DNA from: an uncultured Aeriscardovia sp.
Lineage (GTDB): Bacteria; Actinomycetota; Actinomycetes; Actinomycetales; Bifidobacteriaceae
DNA length: 64,000 nt
NCBI GenBank assembly: GCA_903789535.1
Contig: CAIFES010000004.1
Span: forward strand, 6,255-70,254
Direction of reading: 5' to 3'
This document shows, piece by piece, positions 29,236-39,512 of this stretch. A program made the position numbers and the translations under genes. The notes under the pieces were generated by a model, which made no database searches, was not told the origin of the DNA, and worked only from the letters and a program-made list of their open reading frames with translations. Positions within the stretch are counted from its first letter, which is position 1. The number at the start of each line of letters is the position of its first letter.

Positions 29236-29553
29236 GCCGTCCTCCCCTGTCGATTCTTCGTCGTCTGTGGCGTCGTGTGGCTGTCGGTGTCTGTCACGCG
29301 CCTTTTTCGTATCTGTCACAAGCTTATCCGCGACCGATGATGGCTCCGCCGGCAGCAATTCATCGCCGCCATCAATGTGTGATGGCGAAAAGGGGATAGC
29401 GGATCAGAGACATCGCACGGGTGATAGTCGATCAGGAATATCTGATTGCTGACGCCGGCTTGAACGGTCCGCACCAATCGGCAAAGATAGAAACGGCGGC
29501 CAACGATGGCCGGACGCGGTGAGAGACACCGCACAAGTGCTCAGGGAGGTCTG

Positions 29554-30555
29554 ATGGCACGTTTTATCTTTTACGACACGCACGACTATGAGGTCCCGTT
29601 CGTCCACGAGTGGGAGAAGAAGACCGGCAACAGCGTCGAGATGGTCACCGAGGCCCTCAACGACGAGACCGTCTCCAGGGCAAAGGGCTTTGACGGCCTG
29701 ACCTGCATGCAGACCACCTCCCTGGGCAGCGAGAAGGTATACGCCACGCTCGAGGAGTACGGCATCAAGCAGATCACTGTGCGCATGGTCGGCGTCGACA
29801 TGGTCGACCTCAAGGCCGCCGCCGCCCACCACCTCACCGTCACACACGTGCCGGTCTACTCGCCGCGCGCCATCGCCGAGATGGGCGTCACCCAGGCCAT
29901 GTACCTGCTGCGCCACATCGGCGAGTACAACCAGCGCATGGACAAGGCCGACTTCTCCTGGCCGGCCGACCTCATCGCCGACGAGATCTACACCCGCACG
30001 GTCGGTCTGATCGGCACCGGCAACATCGGCGGCGCCACCGCGCAGATCTACAAGGCCCTCGGCGCCCGCGTCATCGCCTTCGATGTGTTCGAGAACCCGG
30101 CGCTCGCCCCGTTCGTCGAGTTCGTCGACAAGGAGACCGTGCTGCGCGAGTCGGACATCATCAGCCTTCACACCCCGCTCATCCCCAGCACCCGCAACAT
30201 GATCGGTGCCAAGGAGTTCGAGATGATGAAGCCGAACGCGATCCTCATCAACCAGGCGCGTGGCGGTCTCGTCGACACGCAGGCGCTCATCGACGCGCTC
30301 GACAAGAAGGAGATCGCCGGCGCCGGCCTCGACACCCTCGCCGACGAGACCACCTACTTCGGCCACGAGGTCTCCCCCGCCGACGTGCCGGAGGACTACA
30401 AGAACCTCGCCGCCCGTCCGAACGTGGTCATCACCCCGCACGTGGCGTTCTTCACCAAGACCGCCGTGCGCAACCAGGTGCACATCGCGCTCAACGACGC
30501 GCTGACCATCGTCAACGGCGGTCGCGTGCGCAACGCCATCCACGGCGAGTTCTGA
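29554..30555 (+). CDS. D-isomer-specific 2-hydroxyacid dehydrogenase (D-lactate dehydrogenase-like)
   Basis: MARFIFYDTHDYE..., NAD-binding LIGTGNIGG, and HTPL...ARG...H catalytic context. ATG 29554 follows GGGAGG. Confidence 0.85.
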   Translation: MARFIFYDTHDYEVPFVHEWEKKTGNSVEMVTEALNDETVSRAKGFDGLTCMQTTSLGSEKVYATLEEYGIKQITVRMVGVDMVDLKAAAAHHLTVTHVPVYSPRAIAEMGVTQAMYLLRHIGEYNQRMDKADFSWPADLIADEIYTRTVGLIGTGNIGGATAQIYKALGARVIAFDVFENPALAPFVEFVDKETVLRESDIISLHTPLIPSTRNMIGAKEFEMMKPNAILINQARGGLVDTQALIDALDKKEIAGAGLDTLADETTYFGHEVSPADVPEDYKNLAARPNVVITPHVAFFTKTAVRNQVHIALNDALTIVNGGRVRNAIHGEF

Positions 30556-30569
30556 TCTCAGACTCGGCT

Positions 30570-30654
30570 GGTTCTCAGAGTCACCGGGTTCTGAGAATCG
30601 ACGAGTTCTGAGTTTCAGATAGTCGAGCTTTGGTGACGGTTCTGACAGCGTCGT
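30570..30654. repeat. Imperfect tandem array with 17-nt period built on the motif GTTCTSA
   Basis: GGTTCTCAGAGTCACCG / GGTTCTGAGAATCGACG / AGTTCTGAGTTTCAGAT / (degenerate unit) / GGTTCTGACAGCGTCGT. A further GTTCTGA at 30549..30555 contains the dehydrogenase stop codon. Confidence 0.6.
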
Positions 30655-30857
30655 CGTGACGCCTGGGAACCCGCCTTCCCCTGTCATCGGCTTGATGCAG
30701 TTCATCTGGATCACCGATGGTGGGGGATTTTTTTATATCGCGATTGATGGTTTCATCGCGAGAAATGTGTTCTCGCTTGCTGAGATCTTTGCTGTCGGAA
30801 TGATGAGTAGTTCTCGACAGTTAAATTCCGATTCTGATCACGGTCTGATCGAAATTC

Positions 30858-31955
30858 ATGAAGACTCCTTTTTGGGAGCAGCGACAGCTTGGGGACGTGG
30901 CACCGGTTGTGATGGGGCAGTCACCTGCCGGGAAAACATATTCGCATGAAGAATCCACGTACATTCTCGTTCAAGGCAACAACGACATTGTCAACGGTTT
31001 TGTCAAGCCGCGTACATGGACTACACAAAAGACTCGAGAGGTCCCAGCAGGAACCATTCTGTTCAGCGTAAGAGCACCTGTCGGCAGTCTCGCACAAACA
31101 CAATATGATGTGGTCCTTGGCCGGGGATTCGCAGGAATTAAGGGCGAAGCTTTCATTGCCTATTATCTTGAGCACCTTGGTGAGAGCGGTTACTGGCAGA
31201 GAATGAGTTCTGGATCAGTTCTGGATGCCATCACGGGGCCAGAACTGCGTACGACTCCAATTGCGCTACCATCCGAGCCAGAACGTCAGAGGCTCACCCA
31301 ATTCTTCGACACCCTCGGGTCACTCATCGCTGCCGCCGAGCGTAAATGCGACCTGCTCAAGCTCAAAAAACAGGCGTATCTCCAGCAGATGTTCCCGCAG
31401 AATGGTGAGGAACAGCCGCGTTTGAGGTTCAAAGGATTTACAGGAGATTGGGAACAGCGACAGCTCGGGGAATTGGCTGAAGTGGGAACTGGATCGCACA
31501 ACACACAAGATGGTAAGCAGGCCGGTTTATATCCTTTCTTCATTCGATCTGAGCAAAAACTATTCATGGATAGTTTCGACTTCGACGAAGAAGCTATTCT
31601 GGTTCCTGGCGACGGAAGAATCGGAGAAGTATTCCATTATCAGAATGGACCTTATGCTCTTCATCAACGGGTCTATCGTCTCCATGATTTCCACGGCATC
31701 TCGGCCCATTTTCTTCTGTACCTATTGGAATCTGGATTCAGAGCACATGCGCTCAAGGTCAATTCCCAAGGAACGGTACCGTCTTTGAGACATGCATCGT
31801 TTACCGATTGGCTTGTCCAGATCCCTTCTCCGCAAGAACAAGAAGCAATAGCCCTTCTCCTAGCACAGCTCGATTCCCTCATCTCAGCCGCCGAGCACAA
31901 GCTCGAAACCCTCAAACAGCTCAAGCAAGGCTACCTGCAGCAGATGTTTGTCTGA
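30858..31955 (+). CDS. hsdS: Type I R-M specificity subunit cassette (hsdS'), probably silent
   Basis: Two TRDs separated by the conserved FFDTLGSLIAAAERK...LKKQAYLQQMF region, with a C-terminal LKQLKQGYLQQMFV. There is no SD before the ATG and a TGA lies 4 codons upstream. It lacks the N-terminal ...QPRLRFKGFTD segment seen in the operon-linked hsdS. Confidence 0.85.
   Translation: MKTPFWEQRQLGDVAPVVMGQSPAGKTYSHEESTYILVQGNNDIVNGFVKPRTWTTQKTREVPAGTILFSVRAPVGSLAQTQYDVVLGRGFAGIKGEAFIAYYLEHLGESGYWQRMSSGSVLDAITGPELRTTPIALPSEPERQRLTQFFDTLGSLIAAAERKCDLLKLKKQAYLQQMFPQNGEEQPRLRFKGFTGDWEQRQLGELAEVGTGSHNTQDGKQAGLYPFFIRSEQKLFMDSFDFDEEAILVPGDGRIGEVFHYQNGPYALHQRVYRLHDFHGISAHFLLYLLESGFRAHALKVNSQGTVPSLRHASFTDWLVQIPSPQEQEAIALLLAQLDSLISAAEHKLETLKQLKQGYLQQMFV
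30872..30901 (+). repeat. IR1-left, 30 bp: TTGGGAGCAGCGACAGCTTGGGGACGTGGC
   Basis: Exact reverse complement of 34145..34174. It encodes WEQRQLGDV at the 5' end of both hsdS genes. Confidence 0.9.
31320..31342 (+). repeat. IR2-left, 23 bp: TCACTCATCGCTGCCGCCGAGCG
   Basis: Reverse complement of 33670..33692 with one mismatch. It encodes SLIAAAER in the central conserved region of both hsdS genes. Confidence 0.85.
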
Positions 31956-31956
31956 G
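31941..31956 (+). repeat. IR3-left, 16 bp: CAGATGTTTGTCTGAG
   Basis: Exact reverse complement of 33020..33035. It spans the last codons and stop of both hsdS genes, and is embedded in roughly 55 nt of about 85 percent identity by eye. Confidence 0.8.
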
Positions 31957-32025
31957 CAGTGTTCGTCCCTGCTGTGCCTACTGTCCTTTCTGCCACTGGC
32001 ACCATGCCGGCGGCGGGAAGGAATC

Positions 32026-32946
32026 ATGTATAAAAATCAGTTGCTGACGAACTATTACTCGGAATGGGTCGAGACGTATAAGCGTGGTGCAGTCTCGGAC
32101 GTCACCTTGCGCAAGTATTTGATGACGGCGAGGCGCCTGCGCGAGCTCGCGCCCGCCTTGACGCTGCACGATCTGTCACGGCTGGCATATCAGCGTCTGC
32201 TCAACACGTATGCCCTGACCCATGAGCGGCAGACCGTGCTGGACTTTCATCATCAGGTGAAGGCGGCGATCGAGGATGCGGTCGATGAGGGGATCATCCG
32301 TCACGACCCGACCCGTAAGGCCGTCATCAAAGGCACAACCCGGCGAGCGCACAAACCGAAGTACCTGAGCAAGTTCGAGCTGACGAAGCTGCTCGAGCAG
32401 ATGGTGCCGGACGATGATCATCCGTACGATTTCCTGTTGCTGCTGATTGCCAAGACCGGGCTGCGCTTTGCCGAGGCGCTGGGGCTCACACCGGCCGATA
32501 TCGATTTTCAGACGCAGCAGCTGAGCGTGACGAAGACGTGGAATTATAAAAGCATCACTGGCGGGTACGCTCCGACGAAGAACGAGTCGTCAAAACGCAA
32601 GGTACGGCTCGACTGGATGCTGTGTATGCAGCTCAAGCAGAAATGCCGTGGTCTCAGGTCTGATCAGCCTCTTTTCGTTGTCCCTGGAAAACGAATTTTC
32701 AACGCGACCGTCAACAAACGACTGGAGGAGCTGTGCCGTATGGCCGGCGTGCCCGTCATCTCTGTCCACGGCCTGCGGCATACGCACGCCTCGCTGCTTC
32801 TGTACGCAGGTGTGTCCGTCGCCTCCGTGGCGAAGAGACTCGGTCACGCCAACATGTCCACTACAGAAACGACATACCTGCATATCATCCGCGAGCTTGA
32901 GGCGAAGGACAACGACAAAGTGATGCAGTTCCTCAGCACGTTGTGA
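32026..32946 (+). CDS. Tyrosine site-specific recombinase (phage-integrase family), shufflon invertase candidate
   Basis: GLRFAEAL (Arg I), HGLRHTHAS (His-x-x-Arg) and TTYLHI (Tyr) catalytic signature. ATG 32026 follows GGAAGGA. The track start at 31948 is a TTG inside the hsdS' stop region. Confidence 0.9.
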   Translation: MYKNQLLTNYYSEWVETYKRGAVSDVTLRKYLMTARRLRELAPALTLHDLSRLAYQRLLNTYALTHERQTVLDFHHQVKAAIEDAVDEGIIRHDPTRKAVIKGTTRRAHKPKYLSKFELTKLLEQMVPDDDHPYDFLLLLIAKTGLRFAEALGLTPADIDFQTQQLSVTKTWNYKSITGGYAPTKNESSKRKVRLDWMLCMQLKQKCRGLRSDQPLFVVPGKRIFNATVNKRLEELCRMAGVPVISVHGLRHTHASLLLYAGVSVASVAKRLGHANMSTTETTYLHIIRELEAKDNDKVMQFLSTL

Positions 32947-32960
32947 GATGCTGCGACTAC

Positions 32961-33017
32961 CAGTAAGCCGTCCTATCGGGCGCATCCCTCGAGAAGCTCA
33001 GATAGGGCGGCTTACTG
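32961..33017. terminator. Long hairpin between the convergent recombinase and hsdS genes
   Basis: CAGTAAGCCGTCCTATC ... GATAGGGCGGCTTACTG form a 17-bp stem (one G.U pair) with a 23-nt loop and no clear U tract. Confidence 0.45.
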
Positions 33018-33019
33018 TT

Positions 33020-33035
33020 CTCAGACAAACATCTG
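33020..33035 (-). repeat. IR3-right
   Basis: CTCAGACAAACATCTG is the exact reverse complement of 31941..31956. Confidence 0.8.
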
Positions 33036-34244
33036 TTGGAGATAACCCTGCTTGAGCTGCTTGAGGGCCTCGAGCTTGCGTTCCGAGACTGAGATCTGAG
33101 AGTCAAGGGCATTAAAGAATGTGCCGATGGCCTGTTGCTCATCCTCAGACGGAATACGTATTTTCTGTTTGAACAGATCCTCCGGTACAAGTTCGTTCAT
33201 GATTGTTCCGCGCTTTGTCGAACGAATAAGTACAGGCCGCATGATCTGTTCATTGCGAAGAAGACATTTCCAGAACGAAAGAACAAGTGGTCTGCGTGGG
33301 CGTATCGCGCGAAAACGCGGAGACATGATTCCGACGCCGATATCGTTGAGAACAAGCTGACCGAACGGATGTGTCCGATGGCGATTCCCCTCGAAGGCAA
33401 TATCACCAGGGCGAAGAACCCTATATGTATTCAGAGAATCTGCAGCAGCAGACTTATCGCTGAATGACATTTTTGCTACTGAGATGAACTGTGATGCAGG
33501 GAATTGCCCATCGTTTCTCTCTTCATCCAGATCGAATAGATCACCAAGCTTCTGCTGCTCCCAGTCACCAGAAAAGCCCTTAAACCTCGTATGCGGCTGC
33601 AGTTCTCCTTTAGCCGTGAATAGACGTCGAAGATACGCAGCCTTCTCTAGGGCCAAAGTGCGAAGATGTCGCTCGGCGGCAGCTATGAGTGAATCGAGAA
33701 TTCGGAAGAATGTACCAATATTTTTCTGCTCTGTGATAGAAGGAATCGCGATAGGCATTTTCTCCATGGTTTTGGCAGAGACTTCGAGGAAAGTCGAACC
33801 CCCGGCCATTCTTTCTGCCCATGTCTTCGCTGTCAGACTCCGGCAATACATGAAGTAGATATCCATGTGGTCGTCGAGCACCCAAGATTGGAATCCCTGG
33901 TTGGTTGTAGCCGTCGTCAGCAAGATCGCCGTATCTCCGATTCCCGCACGCGAAGTAAACAGGATTGTTCTACCAGCCGGGAGTAGCGTTGCAGAACTAT
34001 GTTCCAACCCGCTTTGAGAAATCTTTCGACGGCTTTCTGACGCATATACAGATTGACCGATCTCATTAGGCGAAAACCAGTTGATATCGCCATTCCAATA
34101 ATCGGGGTTTGAGGTGTCGGGCGTTCCGCCTCCTACGATCTGAGCCACGTCCCCAAGCTGTCGCTGCTCCCAAGGGTCTGTGAACCCCTTGAACCGTAGT
34201 CTCGGCTGGAGTTCCTTCTTGGCTGATTTGCCTGTGTTTGTCAT
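33021..34244 (-). CDS. hsdS: Type I R-M specificity subunit (expressed copy, downstream of hsdM)
   Basis: MTNTGKSAKKELQPRLRFKGFTDPWEQRQLGDV..., central FFRILDSLIAAAERH, second PHTRFKGFSGDWEQQKLGDL and C-terminal LKQLKQGYLQQMFV. ATG 34244 follows GGGAGCAG and lies 35 nt after the hsdM stop. Confidence 0.9.
   Translation of the reverse strand: MTNTGKSAKKELQPRLRFKGFTDPWEQRQLGDVAQIVGGGTPDTSNPDYWNGDINWFSPNEIGQSVYASESRRKISQSGLEHSSATLLPAGRTILFTSRAGIGDTAILLTTATTNQGFQSWVLDDHMDIYFMYCRSLTAKTWAERMAGGSTFLEVSAKTMEKMPIAIPSITEQKNIGTFFRILDSLIAAAERHLRTLALEKAAYLRRLFTAKGELQPHTRFKGFSGDWEQQKLGDLFDLDEERNDGQFPASQFISVAKMSFSDKSAAADSLNTYRVLRPGDIAFEGNRHRTHPFGQLVLNDIGVGIMSPRFRAIRPRRPLVLSFWKCLLRNEQIMRPVLIRSTKRGTIMNELVPEDLFKQKIRIPSEDEQQAIGTFFNALDSQISVSERKLEALKQLKQGYLQQMFV
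33670..33692 (-). repeat. IR2-right
   Basis: CGCTCGGCGGCAGCTATGAGTGA is the reverse complement of IR2-left, apart from one base. Confidence 0.85.
34145..34174 (-). repeat. IR1-right
   Basis: GCCACGTCCCCAAGCTGTCGCTGCTCCCAA is the exact reverse complement of 30872..30901. Confidence 0.9.
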
Positions 34245-34278
34245 AATTGCCGCTGCTCCCAAACGAAAATAATCGCGA

Positions 34279-36039
34279 TTAATTTTTGGGCTGGTTATCT
34301 CGTGCATCATCCGTCTGGTTCGGATCGTCGGCTGCAGAATCGTCGCGATCTGCCGTTCCGTCGGACTGATTGTTTGTATCGTCCTCACCCACGCCGGTCG
34401 GCACAAGCTGGGCCGCCATCTGGTTGAATTTCGCCGTCAGATCCGCCATCTGCCTGTCGATATCGGCAAGCTCCTGATTGACCTTTCCCAGATCGATCGG
34501 CTTCTCCTCCTCGAACGTATCCACATACCGCGGGATGTTGAGGTTGTAGTCGTTTTCCTTGATCTCGTCGAGACTCGCCACATGCGCGAGCTTCCTGACA
34601 TCCTGCCGTTTCTCGTATGTAGAGAGGATCAGATCGATGTCCTCGGCGCGCAGATGGTTCTGGTTCTTGCCTTTCTCAAAATGCTTGGAGGCGTCGATGA
34701 AGAGGACGTCCGTATTCACCCTGTTCTTGCGGAACACGAGCACGACAGTGGGAATACCGGTGGAATAGAACAGATTGGCCGGCAGACCGATCACCGCGTC
34801 CAGATAATTCTTCTCGATGAGCGCCTTGCGGATGGCCCCTTCGGCGGCACCGCGGAACAGCACGCCGTGGGGAAGAACGATCGCCATGCGGCCGGTAGGC
34901 TTGAGATGGTAGACGCAGTGCTCCACGAAGGCGTAATCGGCCTTGGATTTCGGGGCGAGACGGCCGTAATCCTTGAAGCGCGGGTCCTTCATCTTCGACT
35001 CGTCGTTGTCCCACTTCTGCGAGTAGGGCGGGTTGGCCACCACCGCGTCGAAGAACAGCGGGTGGTCCACACCGTTGGCATCCATGCCGTCAGGCCAGTC
35101 GGACTCGAGGGTGTCGGCATTGCGCAAGTGCATGTTCGTGTACGGAACCCCGTGCATCATCAGGTTCATGCGCGCCAGGTTGTACGTGGTGCTGTTGAGC
35201 TCCTGGCCATAGAACGTCACGCGCTCGGGGTTGGCCGTGCCGCCTTTGACCTCCTGCTGCACCGTCAGCAGCAGCGAGCCGGAGCCGCACGTGGGGTCGT
35301 ACACCTCGAAGTTCTGGCTCTGGTCGGTGATCGCGGCGTTGTCCTGCGCCGGCACGGACGGATCGGCGTAGGTGACGAGCCGCGCGAGCACGTCCGAGAC
35401 CTCGTGCGGCGTGTAGAACTCACCGGCCTTCTTGCCCGAGTTGCTGGCGAACTGGGCGATGAGATACTCGTAGACGCTTCCCAGAACGTCACGGCCGCTG
35501 TCATCGGTGAAATTGATGCTGTTGACGTCCTCGAGCAGGTCGGAGAGCGCCTTGGCGCGCGAGGAGGTGGAGTTGCCCAGACTCGTGTTGCCGAGGTTGA
35601 TGTTGTCGAAGATGCTCTGGAAATCATGCAGTGACTGCTCGCTCAGCCCCGCGTTCTGGCGGAAGTGGTCGAACATGTTCTGGAAGTCCTCGGGACGGAT
35701 GGTCTTGGACTCGGCTTTGGCCACGAGCGTGGCCCACGTGTCCTCCGGGTCGATGGCGTAGCCGATTCCGCGCACGAGCGTCTCGCGCACGTCAGGCAGG
35801 TCCTCACTGCCCACCTGCTGGCGGTAGGCGGCGTTGAGGCTCTGGCCCTCAGCCGGGATCACGAGCGACTGGTCGGCGAGATACTGCTCCTGCTTCTGTG
35901 AGAGATAGCGATAGAAGATGAACCCAAGGATATAGTCGCGGTATTCGCTCGCATCCATCTTGCCGCGCAGGCTGTTTGCCATGTTCCACAGCTGTGCTGC
36001 AAGGTTCTGCGCCTGTTGTGTGCCCGTGTTTTCTGCCAT
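34279..36039 (-). CDS. hsdM: Type I R-M N6-adenine DNA methyltransferase subunit
   Basis: N-terminal HsdM domain (LWNMANSLRGKMDASEYRDYILGFIFYRYLS), SAM motif DPTCGSGSLL and catalytic VVANPPYS. Confidence 0.95.
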   Translation of the reverse strand: MAENTGTQQAQNLAAQLWNMANSLRGKMDASEYRDYILGFIFYRYLSQKQEQYLADQSLVIPAEGQSLNAAYRQQVGSEDLPDVRETLVRGIGYAIDPEDTWATLVAKAESKTIRPEDFQNMFDHFRQNAGLSEQSLHDFQSIFDNINLGNTSLGNSTSSRAKALSDLLEDVNSINFTDDSGRDVLGSVYEYLIAQFASNSGKKAGEFYTPHEVSDVLARLVTYADPSVPAQDNAAITDQSQNFEVYDPTCGSGSLLLTVQQEVKGGTANPERVTFYGQELNSTTYNLARMNLMMHGVPYTNMHLRNADTLESDWPDGMDANGVDHPLFFDAVVANPPYSQKWDNDESKMKDPRFKDYGRLAPKSKADYAFVEHCVYHLKPTGRMAIVLPHGVLFRGAAEGAIRKALIEKNYLDAVIGLPANLFYSTGIPTVVLVFRKNRVNTDVLFIDASKHFEKGKNQNHLRAEDIDLILSTYEKRQDVRKLAHVASLDEIKENDYNLNIPRYVDTFEEEKPIDLGKVNQELADIDRQMADLTAKFNQMAAQLVPTGVGEDDTNNQSDGTADRDDSAADDPNQTDDARDNQPKN

Positions 36040-36110
36040 TGTGATGTCCTTTTTCTGTTCGTGTCCGTCTGGTGCGTCCGTCTGCTGTGTCTGGTGCGTT
36101 TATCCACCGC

Positions 36111-39100
36111 TCACATGTCCGGCGCCTCGCGCACCACCTCGTCCGCCAGACGTCGCAGGGCCGCGGTCAGCGCGTTCCTGTAGCGGAACACACCCATCGC
36201 GCGGATGTTCTCGTCGGTGGCGTCGTTGCGGTAATAACCCTGTTTCGTCACCTCGGCGAGGAGGGTGTTCATATCCTCGCCGTTGATATCATCCGTTCCC
36301 GGCGTGTGGCGTGAGATGAGCGTATCGATGATCTGTTTGGACCCTTCGATATCGAGCAGGCCCCATTTCGTGCGGAAATCGAGAATCTGGGTGCGGGCGC
36401 GGTTTCGTGCGTTGTCGACGGCGATCTGCGTCACATCCTGCGGTCTGACCGGATAGGTGACGCCGGAGATCTTCCCGTCCGGAGCCGATTGCGCGGCGGC
36501 GGCGAGGTCTTTCAGGCGCTGTGCCTTGCCCTGATCGTCGAGCTGTGCGGCGGCCTGAGCGAAGTTCGCCAGACGTGCCTCCTGGTCATCGCTCTGCGTG
36601 CTGCGCGCGTTGAGATAGATGGCGAGCAGCTTTTCCAGATACGAGTAGTTGACGCGCTCCTCCCCCACATGCTCCACATGGAAATCGAGGTCGATCACCG
36701 GCTGTGGCGGGAACTCGGACGCAGAATCAGTCGTACCGGTCGGCAGTGTGATCGTATGTGGCAGCGCGACGAGTTTCTGTTCCTCGTCGTCACTGATTCC
36801 AAGCTTCTCGCGCAGCCCCTCGGGGTGTGCAGGATCAAAGATCGTCTCATCCTGCTTGAGGGCGGTGACTCCGTTGTTATAGATCTTCAGCTGTTGCAGG
36901 CACTCGCGCTTGTCCTCCATGGCCGGCGGATCCATCTGGGTGAAGTCGTCCGTGATCTTGCGCAGGACGTCGATGGCCCGGCGGGTATCATTGGTGATCT
37001 TGTCCATATCAGCAATGACTCCACCACCGTCAGGATGATCCGTCGTAGGATGCACGGCATTCGGGTCAGGTGCTTTTCCTGTCACCGCCGAATTGCGATC
37101 GGCATACACACGCAGCGCCTCGTTCATCAGCTGCTTGGACGTCTCGGGCCAGCGGAAGTTGACGATGCGGCCGAACGGTTTGTACTGGTTGTCGTCGATG
37201 CGGTTCGTGCGCGAGTATGCCTGAATGAGGCTCGCGCCCGAGAGCGTGCGGTCAACGTAGAGCGTGTTGAGCTTCGGGGCGTCGAAACCAGTGAGCAGCT
37301 GGTCGACCACGATCACCAGATCGAGTTTGCGCGCATTGTCCGCGCCGCTGCCCGGATCGACGCCCGCCAGGCGCGAGGTGACGTCAGCGAAATACTGCGG
37401 CACCGAGTCTTTGTTGAAATTTGTGCCGAACTCATGGTTGTAGTAGTCCATCGCCCGCACGAGATCGGCATTGTTGTCCTTCTCGTCATCGCCGTGATTG
37501 TTGGCGAACGAGAAAGTGACGGCGATCGTCAGCGGCGTGCCGCCATTCTTCTCGATCTGACGGTTCTGCCTGCGGAACTCATCAAAGTACTGCATCGCCA
37601 TCGGCGTGGAGGCACCGCTCTTCACATGCGTGGTCAGAAGCGCGGGATAGCGGCCGTCAACCGAGCGGTTGGACCAGTGGTCGAGAATGTTCTTCACCAC
37701 CGCCTCGACGTGCCTGGCATTGCCGTCGTAGACGCCCGAGTCGATGAGGTTGTCGACCTCCTCCGGCTCGATGCGGGCGATGTACATGTTGACCTGCTGT
37801 GTGCTCCAGCCCGGATGCTTCAACGCGATCAGCTGCGGCAGAAGCTTTTCCTTGACCTCGTCGGAATCAAGCGTGTGCTCGAAGTCAACTTTGAAGCCGA
37901 GCACATTCTTGTCGGCGATGCCCTGCTTGATGGTGTAGGCGTGCAGGCACCGGCCGAAGATGCGCGAGGTGGTGTCGTCGTCGAACAGTGGGGTTCCCGT
38001 GTAGCCCACCCAGGCGGAGAACGGGAACTTTTTGCGGATATCCTGCAGCATCGAGCCGTTGGTGGAGCGATGCGCCTCATCGCAGATGAACACGCAACGC
38101 TTGTCAAACTTTTTGAACGAGTCGCGCTTGCACAGATCCCCCATCTTCTGGATGGAGGTGACGATGATCGAGCTGCCGCTCTGCCGGCTGCGCAGACGCC
38201 GGGCAAGATCCGACACATTGCGCGTGTCGGAGACGACGCCGGACGAATCGACCGTCGAATCAGGATCGTAGGCGCGGTACTTGTCGTATGTCTGCCGCGT
38301 CAGCGCAATACGGTCCACAAGGAAGACCACCTTGTCGACCATCGGCAGCCGTGAGGCGAGCCATGCCGTCTTAAAGCTCGTGATGGTCTTGCCCGAGCCT
38401 GTCGTATGCCACACATAGCCAATGCCCTGTGCCTGGGCGGTATCGAAATCATGATTTTTGATGGCTCTGATCACACGGCGCGTGGCATACACCTGGTAGG
38501 GGCGCATGACGATGAGCCGGTCATGGCCGCGCTCGCCGTCAAGGATCATATAGCTCGTCGCCATCTGGTGCGCCATCGGGATGGAGAGCATCAGGTCGGT
38601 GAACGTCTTCCAGTCGTAGACCGGCTCGCCCTCGGGCGTCTGCCAGCGGAACGAGAAGTCGAGGCTGAAATGGTCCGCATCGGTCATCGCCATGTATTTG
38701 CAGTCGTAGGGCGTCATTCCCACAAGAATCTGCAGTGTGGAGAAAATACCGCCGTACTGGCCCTCCTGCGCATAGCGCTGCTCCTGGCGCAGCGCCTCGT
38801 TCACATCGTGCGCGGCGGATTTCTCCTCGATCTGGATGATCGGCAGACCGTTGATGAGCAGCGTCGTGTCGAAACGGCGTGAAGGAAGACCCGCCCGCAC
38901 CGGTTTGCGCTGTATCTGGTTGACGATCTGGTAGGTCGTGTTGCCCGCGCCCACCTGCTCCTGGTCGAACACGGTCAGCATCACCGTCTGGCCGGCGGGA
39001 TCCGTCGTCGTGTCCGTCGACTGCCGTTCGGAATCACCGTTTTGCGAGCCGTCGCCCGCCTGCGCCGCATCGCGATGGATCTCCACCTGCGTGACGCCGT

Positions 39101-39401
39101 TGAAACCGTACAGCCACTGTCCTGCCTTGTAGGGTGAGGAGCAGTTGGTGAGCAGCTCACGTCTGACCTGATTGAACTCATCGTTCGTCAGCGGTCTGCC
39201 GCCAAGCTTTCCGGTGTTGTTGCGCTCGAGAATATGGCGGAAGTTCGCCCACAGATCGTCCGTCGTCTTGATATCCGGCCTGTACTGCCATTGCTTCGTG
39301 CCGCCGATATGTTGCAGATGGCTGATGAGCTGACGTTCGAAGGCCTCCTCATCGCAAGGCACGGTCTGGTCCATTCCAGCGTTCTGCATCGAATCGCCCA
39401 T
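36111..39401 (-). CDS. hsdR: Type I R-M restriction endonuclease/translocase subunit
   Basis: HTTGSGKT (Walker A), ICDEAHRST (DEAH box), and YTGTP and QAYSRTNR helicase motifs. I prefer ATG 39401 after GAAAGG; the track ORF extends to 39479. Confidence 0.95.
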   Translation of the reverse strand: MGDSMQNAGMDQTVPCDEEAFERQLISHLQHIGGTKQWQYRPDIKTTDDLWANFRHILERNNTGKLGGRPLTNDEFNQVRRELLTNCSSPYKAGQWLYGFNGVTQVEIHRDAAQAGDGSQNGDSERQSTDTTTDPAGQTVMLTVFDQEQVGAGNTTYQIVNQIQRKPVRAGLPSRRFDTTLLINGLPIIQIEEKSAAHDVNEALRQEQRYAQEGQYGGIFSTLQILVGMTPYDCKYMAMTDADHFSLDFSFRWQTPEGEPVYDWKTFTDLMLSIPMAHQMATSYMILDGERGHDRLIVMRPYQVYATRRVIRAIKNHDFDTAQAQGIGYVWHTTGSGKTITSFKTAWLASRLPMVDKVVFLVDRIALTRQTYDKYRAYDPDSTVDSSGVVSDTRNVSDLARRLRSRQSGSSIIVTSIQKMGDLCKRDSFKKFDKRCVFICDEAHRSTNGSMLQDIRKKFPFSAWVGYTGTPLFDDDTTSRIFGRCLHAYTIKQGIADKNVLGFKVDFEHTLDSDEVKEKLLPQLIALKHPGWSTQQVNMYIARIEPEEVDNLIDSGVYDGNARHVEAVVKNILDHWSNRSVDGRYPALLTTHVKSGASTPMAMQYFDEFRRQNRQIEKNGGTPLTIAVTFSFANNHGDDEKDNNADLVRAMDYYNHEFGTNFNKDSVPQYFADVTSRLAGVDPGSGADNARKLDLVIVVDQLLTGFDAPKLNTLYVDRTLSGASLIQAYSRTNRIDDNQYKPFGRIVNFRWPETSKQLMNEALRVYADRNSAVTGKAPDPNAVHPTTDHPDGGGVIADMDKITNDTRRAIDVLRKITDDFTQMDPPAMEDKRECLQQLKIYNNGVTALKQDETIFDPAHPEGLREKLGISDDEEQKLVALPHTITLPTGTTDSASEFPPQPVIDLDFHVEHVGEERVNYSYLEKLLAIYLNARSTQSDDQEARLANFAQAAAQLDDQGKAQRLKDLAAAAQSAPDGKISGVTYPVRPQDVTQIAVDNARNRARTQILDFRTKWGLLDIEGSKQIIDTLISRHTPGTDDINGEDMNTLLAEVTKQGYYRNDATDENIRAMGVFRYRNALTAALRRLADEVVREAPDM

Positions 39402-39410
39402 CAGAAAAAC

Positions 39411-39512
39411 CTTTCGCAACAGCATTGTCGACGATGCCGGATTCATTTCATGACATTGTCGGCATTGTCGCTGTCCCATAGCGACAATTTCTTACTGTAC
39501 CTGTTGCGAAAG
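39411..39512 (-). promoter_or_regulatory. Nested inverted repeats in the hsdR leader; the proximal arm covers the hsdR SD
   Basis: Outer 12-nt perfect inverted repeat: CTTTCGCAACAG (39411..39422) with CTGTTGCGAAAG (39501..39512). Inner 8-nt inverted repeat: ATTGTCGC (39464..39471) with GCGACAAT (39481..39488). There are also extra ATTGTCG copies. Confidence 0.4.

What the first reader, a model, noticed from the sequence alone, without database searches (positions are those of the whole stretch)
30858..39401. Type I restriction-modification operon wired as a recombinase-driven hsdS shufflon
hsdR (36111..39401), hsdM (34279..36039) and hsdS (33021..34244) form one minus-strand operon. A second complete two-TRD hsdS cassette (30858..31955) faces it on the plus strand. 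A tyrosine recombinase gene (32026..32946, R / H-x-x-R / Y signature) lies between the two hsdS copies. This convergent hsdS - recombinase - hsdS layout matches the invertible Type I systems described in Mycoplasma pulmonis, Streptococcus pneumoniae (ivr/SpnD39III) and Bacteroides, and noted in some bifidobacterial genomes. In those systems, site-specific inversion reshuffles target recognition domains and switches the methylome, giving phase-variable defence and epigenetic regulation. It is the only clearly accessory, defence-type multi-gene system in the window.
Basis: partly seen in the sequence, partly recalled or inferred. Interest (0 to 1): 0.75.

Follow-up and report, generated by a model that had tools for sequence, protein, structure and literature searches.

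The report
Invertible Type I restriction specificity switch
This is an ordinary member of a well-described class: a Type I restriction-modification operon whose DNA-recognition gene can be swapped with a silent copy by a built-in recombinase, here in a bifidobacterium-like genome.

Summary
The window holds an intact hsdR-hsdM-hsdS operon on the minus strand, a second two-domain hsdS on the plus strand, and an intact tyrosine recombinase between them. The recombinase belongs to the EfiA clade (clade 4 of Huang et al. 2020, Enterococcus faecalis Efa4125I). It was not tested against the pneumococcal PsrA/CreX, Mycoplasma HvsR or Bacteroides BfiA enzymes.

A perfect 30-bp inverted repeat (30872-30901 / 34144-34173) lies at the start of the first recognition domain of each hsdS. 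It contains the family's conserved site, TGGGAGCAGCGACAG. Inversion there would swap the whole hsdS body and give an open 384-aa alternative subunit.

The central and 3' repeats are degenerate, with 14 and 16 exact bases. The central pair differs in the hexamer I infer to be the crossover core. A two-state switch is therefore more likely than four states.

Inversion is not shown for this strain. One public assembly breaks exactly at both repeat copies while a sister sample reads through. Relatives with 70-78% identical recombinases do show reciprocal inversions between samples.

Verdict: a new member of a known kind, of low to moderate interest.

The parts
36111..39479 (-). hsdR, the restriction/translocase subunit. 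The start codon is uncertain (39401, 39425 or 39479).
   Evidence: Pfam HSDR_N, SWI2_SNF2, ResIII and T1R_D3-like; TIGR00348 at 301 bits (cut-off 285); GSGKT and DEAH present. The Logan gene call gives 1104 aa.
34279..36039 (-). hsdM, the N6-adenine methyltransferase subunit.
   Evidence: Pfam N6_Mtase at 383 bits and HsdM_N; TIGR00497 at 391 bits; NPPY motif.
33021..34244 (-). hsdS in the expression site, 407 aa: a 24-aa leader, TRD1, the central conserved region, TRD2 and the C-terminal conserved region.
   Evidence: Two Methylase_S stretches. It lies 34 nt downstream of the hsdM stop codon and has a GGGAG box upstream of its ATG.
34144..34173 (-). Right arm of the perfect 30-bp inverted repeat (type-1 site, TTGGGAGCAGCGACAGCTTGGGGACGTGGC). 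It encodes WEQRQLGDVA at the start of TRD1.
   Evidence: Logan contig ERR4183111_941 ends at 34144.
30872..30901 (+). Left arm of the perfect 30-bp inverted repeat, at codons 6-15 of hsdS'.
   Evidence: Logan contig ERR4183111_3462 ends at 30901, and contig _25970 spans exactly 30872..34173.
30858..31955 (+). hsdS', the second two-TRD specificity gene (365 aa). It lacks the 24-aa leader and is presumed silent.
   Evidence: Two Methylase_S stretches. It is only 33% identical to hsdS, and that identity is confined to the conserved regions. No consensus promoter was found upstream.
32026..32946 (+). Tyrosine recombinase (invertase) of the EfiA clade, 306 aa.
   Evidence: PF00589. Catalytic residues R147, K170, H248, R251, H274 and Y284. 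It is 57% identical to the recombinase next to the published Efa4125I repeat. Solved-structure matches are XerA, XerD and Int.
31448..31477 (+). Internal type-1 site at the start of TRD2 of hsdS' (TTGGGAACAGCGACAGCTCGGGGAATTGGC). It shares 11 exact bases, including GCGACA, with the site at 34144-34173.
   Evidence: (D2, I2). Recombination here would give an open 192-aa half-HsdS.
33541..33563 (-). Degenerate type-1 site at the start of TRD2 of hsdS (TGGGAGCAGCAGAAG).
   Evidence: (I7).
31301..31342 (+). Central conserved-region repeat (type-2 site) of hsdS'. It reads ...ATCGCTGCCGCCGAGCGTAAA.
   Evidence: I4, 81% over 42 nt; 14 exact bases; core GCGTAA.
33670..33711 (-). Central conserved-region repeat (type-2 site) of hsdS. 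It reads ...ATAGCTGCCGCCGAGCGACAT.
   Evidence: Its core, GCGACA, differs from that of its partner.
31869..31956 (+). 3'-terminal repeat arm of hsdS' (C-terminal conserved helix and stop codon).
   Evidence: I1, 88 nt, 80%; 16 exact bases, 31941-31956 / 33020-33035.
33020..33107 (-). 3'-terminal repeat arm of hsdS.
32961..33017 (.). A 17-bp stem with a 23-nt loop, between the convergent recombinase and hsdS genes. It is a likely two-way transcription stop inside the invertible segment.
   Evidence: I9, 94% complementary. Its function is inferred.
34247..34263 (-). A third, imperfect type-1-like site (TTTGGGAGCAGCGGCAA) in the hsdM-hsdS spacer. It overlaps the hsdS ribosome-binding region.
   Evidence: (I10, D6). 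Its significance is unknown.
30711..30733 (+). Terminator-like hairpin with a T-run upstream of hsdS'. It would insulate hsdS' from the upstream dehydrogenase gene.
   Evidence: This is a consensus match only.

Best explanation

**Arrangement as sequenced.** hsdR, hsdM and hsdS are transcribed as one minus-strand operon. A second, promoter-less hsdS' and the recombinase gene lie on the other strand.

**The switch (inferred).** The recombinase pairs the two perfect 30-bp sites at the start of TRD1 of each hsdS (30872-30901 and 34144-34173). It exchanges strands within a short core, which I infer to be GCGACA. This inverts the 3.3-kb segment between the sites.

**The result (inferred).** The 24-codon hsdS leader and the hsdM-linked translation start stay fixed. 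The TRD1'-TRD2' body replaces TRD1-TRD2. The cell then makes a different 384-aa HsdS and so changes both its methylation motif and its restriction target. The reaction is reversible.

**Number of states.**
- The central repeats differ in the inferred core (GCGTAA against GCGACA). A separate swap of TRD2 is therefore doubtful.
- The main switch is most likely two-state.
- A third state is possible through the internal site at 31448-31477. It would express a 192-aa half-HsdS.

**Shown:** the genes, motifs, repeats, open recombinant frames and family membership.

**Inferred:** silence of hsdS', the crossover core, the number of states, and activity in this strain.
For: **Anatomy.** All genes are intact. 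There is a perfect 30-bp inverted repeat in frame in both hsdS genes. Every simulated inversion keeps the reading frames open.

**Family context.**
- Among 80 genomes with 54-70% identical recombinases, the gene lies between or beside hsdS genes in most. The usual order is R-M-S-INT-S(inverted).
- Their exact inverted repeats fall into two site types: TGGGARCAGCGTAAG and ATCACCCTTCATCAGCGTAAG.
- These are the repeats shown experimentally to mediate inversion in E. faecalis Efa4125I and EfaH25I. One of them is only 15 bp long (PMC7672463).
- Contigs carrying the published Efa4125I repeat encode a recombinase 57% identical to this one over 302 aa.

**Constraint at the DNA level.** Synonymous positions of the type-1 site are fixed across phyla: CAG 138 against CAA 6, CGT 104 among the Arg codons, and AAG 119 against AAA 6.

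**Inversion documented in relatives.**
- The species with the 78% identical recombinase carries the system at the same chromosomal place (2-hydroxyacid dehydrogenase ... aspS). Across four samples it has both orientations at 99.6-99.9% identity. The reciprocal crossover maps inside a 26-bp block, TGATCGCTGCCGCGCAGCGACAAAAG.
- For a 70% identical relative, one contig carries the inverted junction across a 14-bp repeat. Other contigs end exactly at 14-19-bp repeats.

**This species.**
- In sample ERR4183111 the assembly is cut into three contigs exactly at both copies of the 30-bp repeat.
- In sample ERR4183112 one contig runs through both copies.
- Logan unitigs come from Cuttlefish 2, which draws an edge only for an observed 32-mer. 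The cut therefore suggests that both junctions are present in the ERR4183111 reads.
Against: - No sequence with the alternative orientation of this locus was found. The window and ERR4183112 have the same orientation.
- None of five predicted recombinant HsdS proteins is in the 15-billion-protein collection.
- The assembly-break argument depends on how the Logan pipeline handles a repeat of exactly k-1 bases. I could not inspect the reads.
- The central, 3' and hsdS TRD2-start sites are degenerate. This could mean the system is decaying.
- Silence of hsdS' rests only on the absence of a consensus promoter and a terminator-like hairpin upstream.
- hsdS' has its own ATG. If it is expressed, a whole-gene swap would change little.
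- The crossover hexamer is inferred from the overlap of repeats used in different strains, not measured.
Confidence: 0.72

Rival explanations
1. The locus is a locked or decaying inverton. It descends from an active shufflon but no longer inverts at a meaningful rate in this strain. The operon works as a fixed-specificity Type I system with a leftover silent hsdS'.
For: Only one of four or five repeat pairs is perfect. The central pair has 14 exact bases and a mismatched core, and the hsdS TRD2-start site is degenerate. The nearest named relatives keep four hsdS copies with perfect central sites, whereas this locus has two copies. Both resolved assemblies share one orientation. No recombinant protein is on record.
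Against: The recombinase is intact at every catalytic position. Thirty perfect bases against a 76-81% background imply recent exchange or selection on the site. The ERR4183111 assembly breaks exactly at both arms. Repeats of 14-15 bp are enough in E. faecalis and in a 70% identical relative.
Confidence: 0.17
2. Inversion occurs, but through general (RecA-type) homologous recombination between the hsdS paralogues. The adjacent recombinase is dispensable. This was reported for the long repeats of the pneumococcal spnIII locus.
For: The title and abstract of PMC6620402 report spnIII recombination that is independent of known site-specific recombinases. For the tvr locus, long repeats recombine without TvrR.
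Against: The longest exact identity here is 30 bp, and the longer repeats are only 76-81% identical. These are poor substrates for homologous recombination. In the pneumococcal systems the short repeats are the ones that need the recombinase. In relatives, crossovers fall in 14-26-bp blocks that always contain the conserved site. Synonymous-site conservation of that site across phyla indicates a protein-recognised sequence.
Confidence: 0.05
3. Both hsdS genes are expressed at once and give two specificities in every cell. Inversion then only exchanges which gene sits behind the operon promoter, so there is no real phase variation of the methylome.
For: hsdS' has its own in-frame ATG at 30858 and a 300-nt AT-richer spacer upstream. 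Both positions hold complete open frames in every predicted state.
Against: No consensus promoter lies upstream of hsdS', and a terminator-like hairpin sits at 30711-30733. There is no recognisable Shine-Dalgarno sequence before 30858. hsdS' lacks the leader that the expression site supplies. In E. faecalis, single variants show one Type I motif each.
Confidence: 0.05
4. The recombinase is the integrase of a mobile island that delivered the restriction-modification genes. On this view it has nothing to do with hsdS rearrangement.
For: G+C falls to 0.50-0.60 across 30.5-39.5 kb, against about 0.65 in the flanks. The genes are more diverged from the syntenic relative (67-72% nt) than the flanking genes are (80-82%).
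Against: The recombinase sits between the two hsdS genes, not at an island edge. No tRNA or att-like direct repeats were seen. In most of 80 homologous loci from several phyla, the gene has the same position between or beside hsdS genes. The only repeats it is bracketed by are inverted and lie inside hsdS.
Confidence: 0.01

Closest known systems
Efa4125I / EfaH25I of Enterococcus faecalis with invertase EfiA (clade 4 epigenetic invertons; Huang et al. 2020, PMC7672463)
   Same: The gene order is the same: hsdR-hsdM-hsdSA-invertase-hsdSB, with two full-length convergent hsdS genes. The recombinase is about 306-309 aa and 57% identical. Repeats lie at the same two places in hsdS, with related sequences: TGGGAACAGTGTAAG there and TGGGAGCAGCGACAG here. 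Short repeats are sufficient.
   Different: The host is a high-G+C member of the Bifidobacteriaceae. The core reads GCGACA instead of GYGTAA. The central repeat is degenerate (14 exact bases, core mismatch), whereas E. faecalis has a 30-60-bp perfect central repeat and four proven alleles. Fewer states are therefore expected. Inversion and methylation motifs have not been shown here.
Loci of Pseudoscardovia radai DSM 24742 and Bifidobacterium apri DSM 100238 (L003, L004), and the uncultured syntenic relative (L087-L090)
   Same: These have the closest recombinases (69-78% identical). The two named genomes share the GCGACAG core at both site types. L087 has the same chromosomal position between the 2-hydroxyacid dehydrogenase gene and aspS.
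   Different: P. radai and B. apri carry four hsdS copies with perfect central sites. The syntenic relative inverts at its central 26-bp block, and one orientation gives a garbled 312-aa hsdS. The window has two copies, and its perfect repeat is at the TRD1 start.
SpnD39III (ivr/cod locus) of Streptococcus pneumoniae with PsrA/CreX (clade 1)
   Same: The principle is the same: one expressed hsdS, silent hsdS sequences in inverted orientation, a locus-encoded tyrosine recombinase, and methylome switching.
   Different: Pneumococcus has one complete and two partial hsdS genes, three repeat pairs and six alleles. Huang et al. report that PsrA shares no significant homology with the representative invertases of the other clades. 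I did not test PsrA directly.
SpnIV (tvr locus) with TvrR, and the clade-2 loci such as Bifidobacterium longum F8
   Same: These are also recombinase-linked hsdS rearrangements, and they occur in bifidobacteria.
   Different: The tvr locus works by excision and reintegration at direct repeats and carries a toxin-antitoxin pair. Here the repeats are inverted and there is no such pair. Huang et al. place B. longum F8 in a different invertase clade.
Mycoplasma pulmonis hsd loci with HvsR (clade 6)
   Same: Inversions between paired hsdS genes at short sites produce chimeric specificity genes.
   Different: HvsR is encoded elsewhere in the genome, and that clade is confined to Mycoplasma. Here the recombinase lies inside the invertible segment.

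Membership tests
Type I restriction-modification system | HsdR with a nuclease domain and SF2 translocase motifs | tested here: met
   HSDR_N, SWI2_SNF2, ResIII and T1R_D3-like; TIGR00348 at 301.5 bits (cut-off 284.55); GSGKT and DEAH.
Type I restriction-modification system | HsdM N6-adenine methyltransferase with the NPPY/F/W catalytic motif | tested here: met
   N6_Mtase at 383 bits; TIGR00497 at 391 bits (cut-off 243); NPPY at residue 336.
Type I restriction-modification system | HsdS with two target recognition domains separated by conserved regions | tested here: met
   Each hsdS has two Methylase_S stretches. The conserved N-terminal, central and C-terminal segments align between the copies.
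Type I restriction-modification system | Bipartite m6A methylation and restriction activity | not testable with these tools
   This needs SMRT or ONT methylome data, or restriction assays.
Epigenetic inverton / hsdS shufflon (definition of Huang et al. 2020) | At least two hsdS genes in one Type I locus, in opposite orientation | tested here: met
   hsdS is on the minus strand and hsdS' on the plus strand, and they converge.
Epigenetic inverton / hsdS shufflon (definition of Huang et al. 2020) | Inverted repeats inside the hsdS coding sequences, placed so that inversion gives in-frame chimeras | tested here: met
   There is a perfect 30-bp repeat, plus 14- and 16-bp exact blocks. Simulated products are open frames of 384, 395 and 192 aa.
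Epigenetic inverton / hsdS shufflon (definition of Huang et al. 2020) | Locus-encoded site-specific recombinase with intact catalytic residues | tested here: met
   PF00589; R147, K170, H248, R251, H274 and Y284.
Epigenetic inverton / hsdS shufflon (definition of Huang et al. 2020) | Inversion actually observed within a population | tested here: inconclusive
   For this species there is only an assembly cut exactly at both repeat arms in ERR4183111, against read-through in ERR4183112. No alternative junction sequence or recombinant protein was found. Inversion was observed in relatives with 70-78% identical recombinases.
EfiA clade (clade 4) invertons | Recombinase homologous to EfiA of E. faecalis | tested here: met
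   It is 57% identical over 302 aa (E 1e-118 to 1e-123) to the recombinase beside the published Efa4125I IR1 sequence in contigs L100-L108. The reference EfiA accession itself was not available.
EfiA clade (clade 4) invertons | Gene order hsdR-hsdM-hsdSA-invertase-hsdSB | tested here: met
   compared with the description.
EfiA clade (clade 4) invertons | Repeats homologous to IR2 (TGGGAACAGTGTAAG, TRD start) and IR1 (ATCACTCTTCATCAGCGTAAG..., conserved helix) | tested here: met
   The type-1 site TGGGAGCAGCGACAG is present three times and nowhere else in the window at two or fewer mismatches, apart from the spacer copy. The type-2 position is occupied by ATCGCTGCCGCCGAGCG(TAAA/ACAT), but this pair is imperfect.
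PsrA/CreX clade (SpnD39III-like) | Recombinase homologous to PsrA, and a locus with one complete and two partial hsdS genes | not tested
The architecture differs, with two complete hsdS genes. Huang et al. report that PsrA shares no significant homology with the representative invertases of the other clades.
TvrR type (excision-reintegration) | Direct repeats flanking the TRD cassettes, and a tvrAT toxin-antitoxin pair next to the recombinase | tested here: not met
   The functional-looking repeats are inverted. No extra genes lie between hsdS' and hsdS other than the recombinase.

The most novel reading that the evidence does not exclude
Both recombination site types of this family share one short crossover core. 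One site type lies at the start of each recognition domain and the other at the start of each conserved helix. The core is a hexamer, G(C/T)GTAA in most hosts and GCGACA in the window and in the named Pseudoscardovia/B. apri relatives. On this reading, the need to keep this DNA site explains why the peptide Q/E-R-K/Q-L recurs at two structurally unrelated places in HsdS. Matching of that hexamer between sites would then predict, from sequence alone, which rearrangements a given inverton can make. Here it predicts a whole-gene swap and a half-HsdS state, but no separate TRD2 swap.
Probability: 0.35. Interest if true: 0.45.

Novelty: new member of a known kind. Interest (0 to 1): 0.25.

Why it matters
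For the organism, a working switch would give a clonal population two alternative methylation and restriction specificities. That hedges against phage and may alter gene expression, as described for pneumococcus, E. faecalis and others.

For the field it adds little. Surveys already list hundreds of such loci, including 54 actinobacterial loci in this recombinase clade.

It has two modest uses. First, it warns annotators and assemblers that this 3.3-kb segment may be heterogeneous. Second, together with the relatives, it is a small natural data set for defining the recombinase's core site.

Tried and rejected
1. **Alternative orientation in public data.**
   - Exact look-ups of the recombinase, hsdM and the upstream dehydrogenase found only two Logan samples and one NCBI genome.
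   - No contig with the inverted junction was found.
   - Five predicted recombinant HsdS proteins are absent from the protein collection.

2. **Naming the organism.** The cluster look-up returned no names. The source genome is not among the species representatives scanned. The nearest named genomes are Pseudoscardovia radai and Bifidobacterium apri, with 69-70% recombinase identity.

3. **Published clade lists.** The supplementary tables of Huang et al. are not held. Atack et al. 2020 and the programmed-inversion survey do not mention bifidobacteria.

4. **Covariation of the core.** I tested whether the 8-mer core is always shared between the two site types. It is shared in only 17 of 56 loci under my rough motif extraction. 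Covariation is therefore clear only for the window's own subclade.

5. **Intersecting all exact repeats across loci to pin the crossover.** Repeats of unknown activity reduce the intersection to 5 bases or fewer (my reading of the list). I therefore used only repeats with evidence of use.

6. **Mobile-island integrase reading.** I rejected it on position and on the census.

7. **The 436-aa minus-strand ORF at 29404..30714.** I treat it as spurious. It has no Pfam match, and the real gene there is the plus-strand 2-hydroxyacid dehydrogenase.
Full report
**1. What is in the sequence**

- hsdR: 36111 to 39401-39479, minus strand.
- hsdM: 34279-36039, minus strand.
- hsdS: 33021-34244, minus strand, 407 aa, two Methylase_S stretches.
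- A tyrosine recombinase: 32026-32946, plus strand, 306 aa.
- A second two-domain hsdS, here called hsdS': 30858-31955, plus strand, 365 aa.

The enzymes look intact.
- HsdM has NPPY.
- HsdR has GSGKT and DEAH.
- The recombinase has R147, K170, H248, R251, H274 and Y284, all invariant among 16 relatives.

The two HsdS proteins are only 33% identical. That identity is confined to the N-terminal, central and C-terminal conserved regions, so the four recognition domains are all different.

G+C falls from about 0.65 in the flanks to 0.50-0.60 across the locus. The flanking genes are a 2-hydroxyacid dehydrogenase and aspS/hisS.

**2. The repeats**

They are what makes the layout meaningful.
- The longest exact inverted repeat is 30 bp, TTGGGAGCAGCGACAGCTTGGGGACGTGGC, at 30872-30901 and 34144-34173.
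- It is in frame in both genes and encodes WEQRQLGDVA at the start of the first recognition domain.
- In hsdS it follows a 24-codon leader. In hsdS' it follows five codons.
- The other conserved segments are much less alike:
  - 42 nt at 81% in the central region, with 14 exact bases.
  - 88 nt at 80% at the 3' ends, with 16 exact bases.
- A third copy of the site is at the start of TRD2 of hsdS' (31448-31477). It shares 11 exact bases with the hsdS site.
- The matching position in hsdS is degenerate.
- A two-mismatch copy sits in the hsdM-hsdS spacer, over the hsdS ribosome-binding region.

Simulated inversions at the 30-bp, 14-bp and 11-bp pairs all leave open frames. The expressed products would be 384, 395 and 192 aa respectively.

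**3. Which family**

The recombinase has thousands of relatives. I fetched 80 genome loci with 54-70% identical homologues.
- They come from Bifidobacteriaceae, Lactobacillales, Listeria, Clostridia, Coriobacteriia and others.
- In most, the recombinase lies between or beside hsdS genes. The commonest order is R-M-S-INT-S(inverted).
- Their exact inverted repeats fall into two types:
  - Type 1: TGGGA(A/G)CAGCGTAAG, at the start of a recognition domain.
  - Type 2: ATCACCCTTCATCAGCGTAAG, at the start of the conserved helix.

Huang et al. 2020 (PMC7672463) showed inversion by PCR, sequencing and SMRT methylomes in E. faecalis Efa4125I and EfaH25I.
- The gene order there is hsdR-hsdM-hsdSA-efiA-hsdSB.
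- Inversion occurs at just these sequences.
- One of the repeats used, TGGGAACAGTGTAAG, is only 15 bp long.

I searched metagenome contigs for the published 39-nt start of Efa4125I IR1. The recombinase next to it is 57% identical to the window's over 302 residues.

The locus therefore belongs to their clade 4 (EfiA). That clade already includes 54 actinobacterial loci in their survey. Comparison with the other recombinase types:
- Huang et al. place the B. longum F8 example in another clade (clade 2).
I could not test homology to those enzymes directly.
- The TvrR type (clade 2) works by excision and reintegration at direct repeats. It does not fit, because the repeats here are inverted and there is no toxin-antitoxin pair.

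**4. Evidence that the site is read as DNA**

I collected 170 in-frame type-1 sites from about 80 genomes whose G+C ranges widely. Their synonymous positions are nearly fixed.
- Gln: CAG 138, CAA 6.
- Arg: CGT 104, CGA 23, CGG 14, CGC 1.
- Lys: AAG 119, AAA 6.

This is not expected from protein constraint alone. It fits a recombinase-recognised sequence.

In the window and its nearest named relatives (P. radai, B. apri) the core reads AGCGACAG in type-1 sites. In the two relatives it reads the same in the central type-2 sites. Other bifidobacteria have AGCGTAAG at both site types. Across all loci this sharing is not general: 17 of 56 by a rough extraction.

**5. Evidence of inversion in relatives**

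*The 78% identical relative.*
- Its recombinase (P0004) sits in a locus at the same chromosomal position, between the dehydrogenase gene and aspS.
- One sample (L087) has the window's orientation.
- Three other samples (L088-L090) carry the same DNA at 99.6-99.9% identity, but with the 2.4-kb TRD2'-recombinase-TRD2 segment inverted.
- The two junctions are exact reciprocal recombinants.
- The crossover is confined to a 26-bp identity block, TGATCGCTGCCGCGCAGCGACAAAAG.
- The assemblies involved used k-mers longer than that exact repeat, so this is not an assembly ambiguity.

*The 70% identical relatives.*
- For P0006, one contig is bounded exactly by a 14-bp type-2 repeat (GCCGAGCAGCGTAA).
- Another P0006 contig carries 16 nt of the inverted junction beyond that repeat.
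- For P0009, contigs end exactly at 15- and 19-bp repeats.
- Repeats this short cannot break a k=31 graph by themselves. The breaks therefore reflect mixed orientations in the reads.

**6. Evidence for this species**

Only three assemblies carry this exact locus.
- The window and the Logan contig of ERR4183112 have the same orientation, with one mismatch in 11 kb.
- In ERR4183111 the region is split into three contigs:
  - one ends at 30901;
  - one spans exactly 30872-34173;
  - one ends at 34144.

Logan unitigs are built with Cuttlefish 2 at k=31. Cuttlefish 2 defines edges by observed 32-mers. A 30-bp repeat therefore need not break a contig, and ERR4183112 shows that it does not. The break in ERR4183111 is what mixed orientations would produce.

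This is circumstantial, because I could not read the raw data. The same contig is unbroken at the central and 3' repeats. None of five predicted recombinant proteins is on record.

**7. Mechanism and number of states**

*Most likely mechanism.*
- The operon expresses the leader-TRD1-TRD2 subunit.
- The recombinase pairs the two 30-bp sites and inverts 30902-34143.
- The leader then reads into TRD1'-TRD2', giving a 384-aa HsdS with a new bipartite specificity.

*The inferred crossover core.* Every repeat with evidence of use contains a hexamer at one position: GTGTAA, GCGTAA or GCGACA. The repeats concerned are:
- E. faecalis TH4125 IR2;
- E. faecalis H25 IR1;
- the P0004 block;
- the P0006 repeat;
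- the P0009 repeats.

The two 15-bp E. faecalis repeats overlap only in GTGTAAG. Tyrosine recombinases generally need identity in their 6-8-bp overlap region; this is established knowledge from Cre, Flp, lambda Int and XerCD. I therefore infer that this hexamer is the crossover core.

*What that predicts here.*
- All three good type-1 sites in the window have GCGACA.
- The central sites have GCGTAA (hsdS') and GCGACA (hsdS).
- A separate TRD2 swap is therefore doubtful, and a two-state switch is the best guess.
- A half-HsdS third state is possible through 31448-31477.
- The 14-bp central identity does not exclude four states.

*Other inferences.*
- hsdS' is probably silent. No consensus promoter lies upstream, a terminator-like hairpin is at 30711-30733, and there is no clear ribosome-binding site.
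- A 17-bp stem at 32961-33017 separates the convergent recombinase and hsdS genes.
- After inversion the recombinase would lie downstream of, and co-directional with, the operon, with no such stem in between. Its expression may therefore depend on orientation. This is speculation.

**8. Verdict**

Three refinements apply: the system is of the EfiA type, it probably has two states, and activity in this strain is not yet shown.

This is a new member of a well-surveyed kind. The only mildly new element is the inferred shared crossover core and its change to GCGACA in this subclade.

Noticed in passing
window 34247-34263: A third, two-mismatch copy of the type-1 recombination site (TTTGGGAGCAGCGGCAA) lies in the hsdM-hsdS spacer, 6 nt before the hsdS start codon. 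It is a direct repeat of the site at 34144-34173, 89 nt away, and brackets the 24-codon leader. It may be a relic of an earlier rearrangement, a further site, or only the ribosome-binding region.
   Followed up: partly
window 32961-33017: A strong 17-bp stem with a 23-nt loop and no T-run lies between the convergent recombinase and hsdS genes, inside the invertible segment. After inversion at the 30-bp repeat it would no longer separate the operon from the recombinase gene.
   Followed up: no
window 29404-30714 (-) and 29554-30555 (+): A 436-aa minus-strand ORF has no family match. It overlaps the real plus-strand 2-hydroxyacid dehydrogenase gene. It looks like a high-G+C shadow ORF.
   Followed up: partly
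window 30500-39500: G+C is 0.50-0.60 across the locus, against about 0.65 in the flanks. hsdM, hsdR and the recombinase gene are 67-72% identical in nucleotides to the syntenic relative L087, while the flanking genes are 80-82% identical. The system therefore evolves faster than its surroundings, or has been replaced in situ.
   Followed up: partly
L087 5601-6554 and 9246-10184: The syntenic relative has two Abi_2 (abortive infection) genes and other inserted genes beside its hsdS'. In the L087 orientation its expressed hsdS is a 312-aa product with a garbled second half. In the inverted orientation (L088-L090) it is an intact 411-aa HsdS. This suggests an on/off-like switch there.
   Followed up: partly
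L007, L014, L024, L033, L041, L073 and others (genome loci); L093-L099 (Logan): Many isolate and metagenome assemblies hold the recombinase on a 1.2-3.4-kb contig that ends inside hsdS genes. In several (L014, L024, L033, L094) the contig ends fall at or within a few bases of the repeats. The pattern looks like a general assembly signature of this family.
   Followed up: partly
L100-L108 (contigs with the E. faecalis Efa4125I repeat): In L104 the recombinase is co-directional with hsdM-hsdS. In L101, L102 and L108 it is convergent with them. Both orientations of the enterococcal inverton are therefore present in public metagenome contigs.
   Followed up: no
L001/L085 and L086, position 1: The Logan contigs of both samples (ERR4183112 and ERR4183111) start at the same base about 2.3 kb upstream of the dehydrogenase gene, inside a 675-aa minus-strand gene. 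This points to a shared repeat or branch point there.
   Followed up: no
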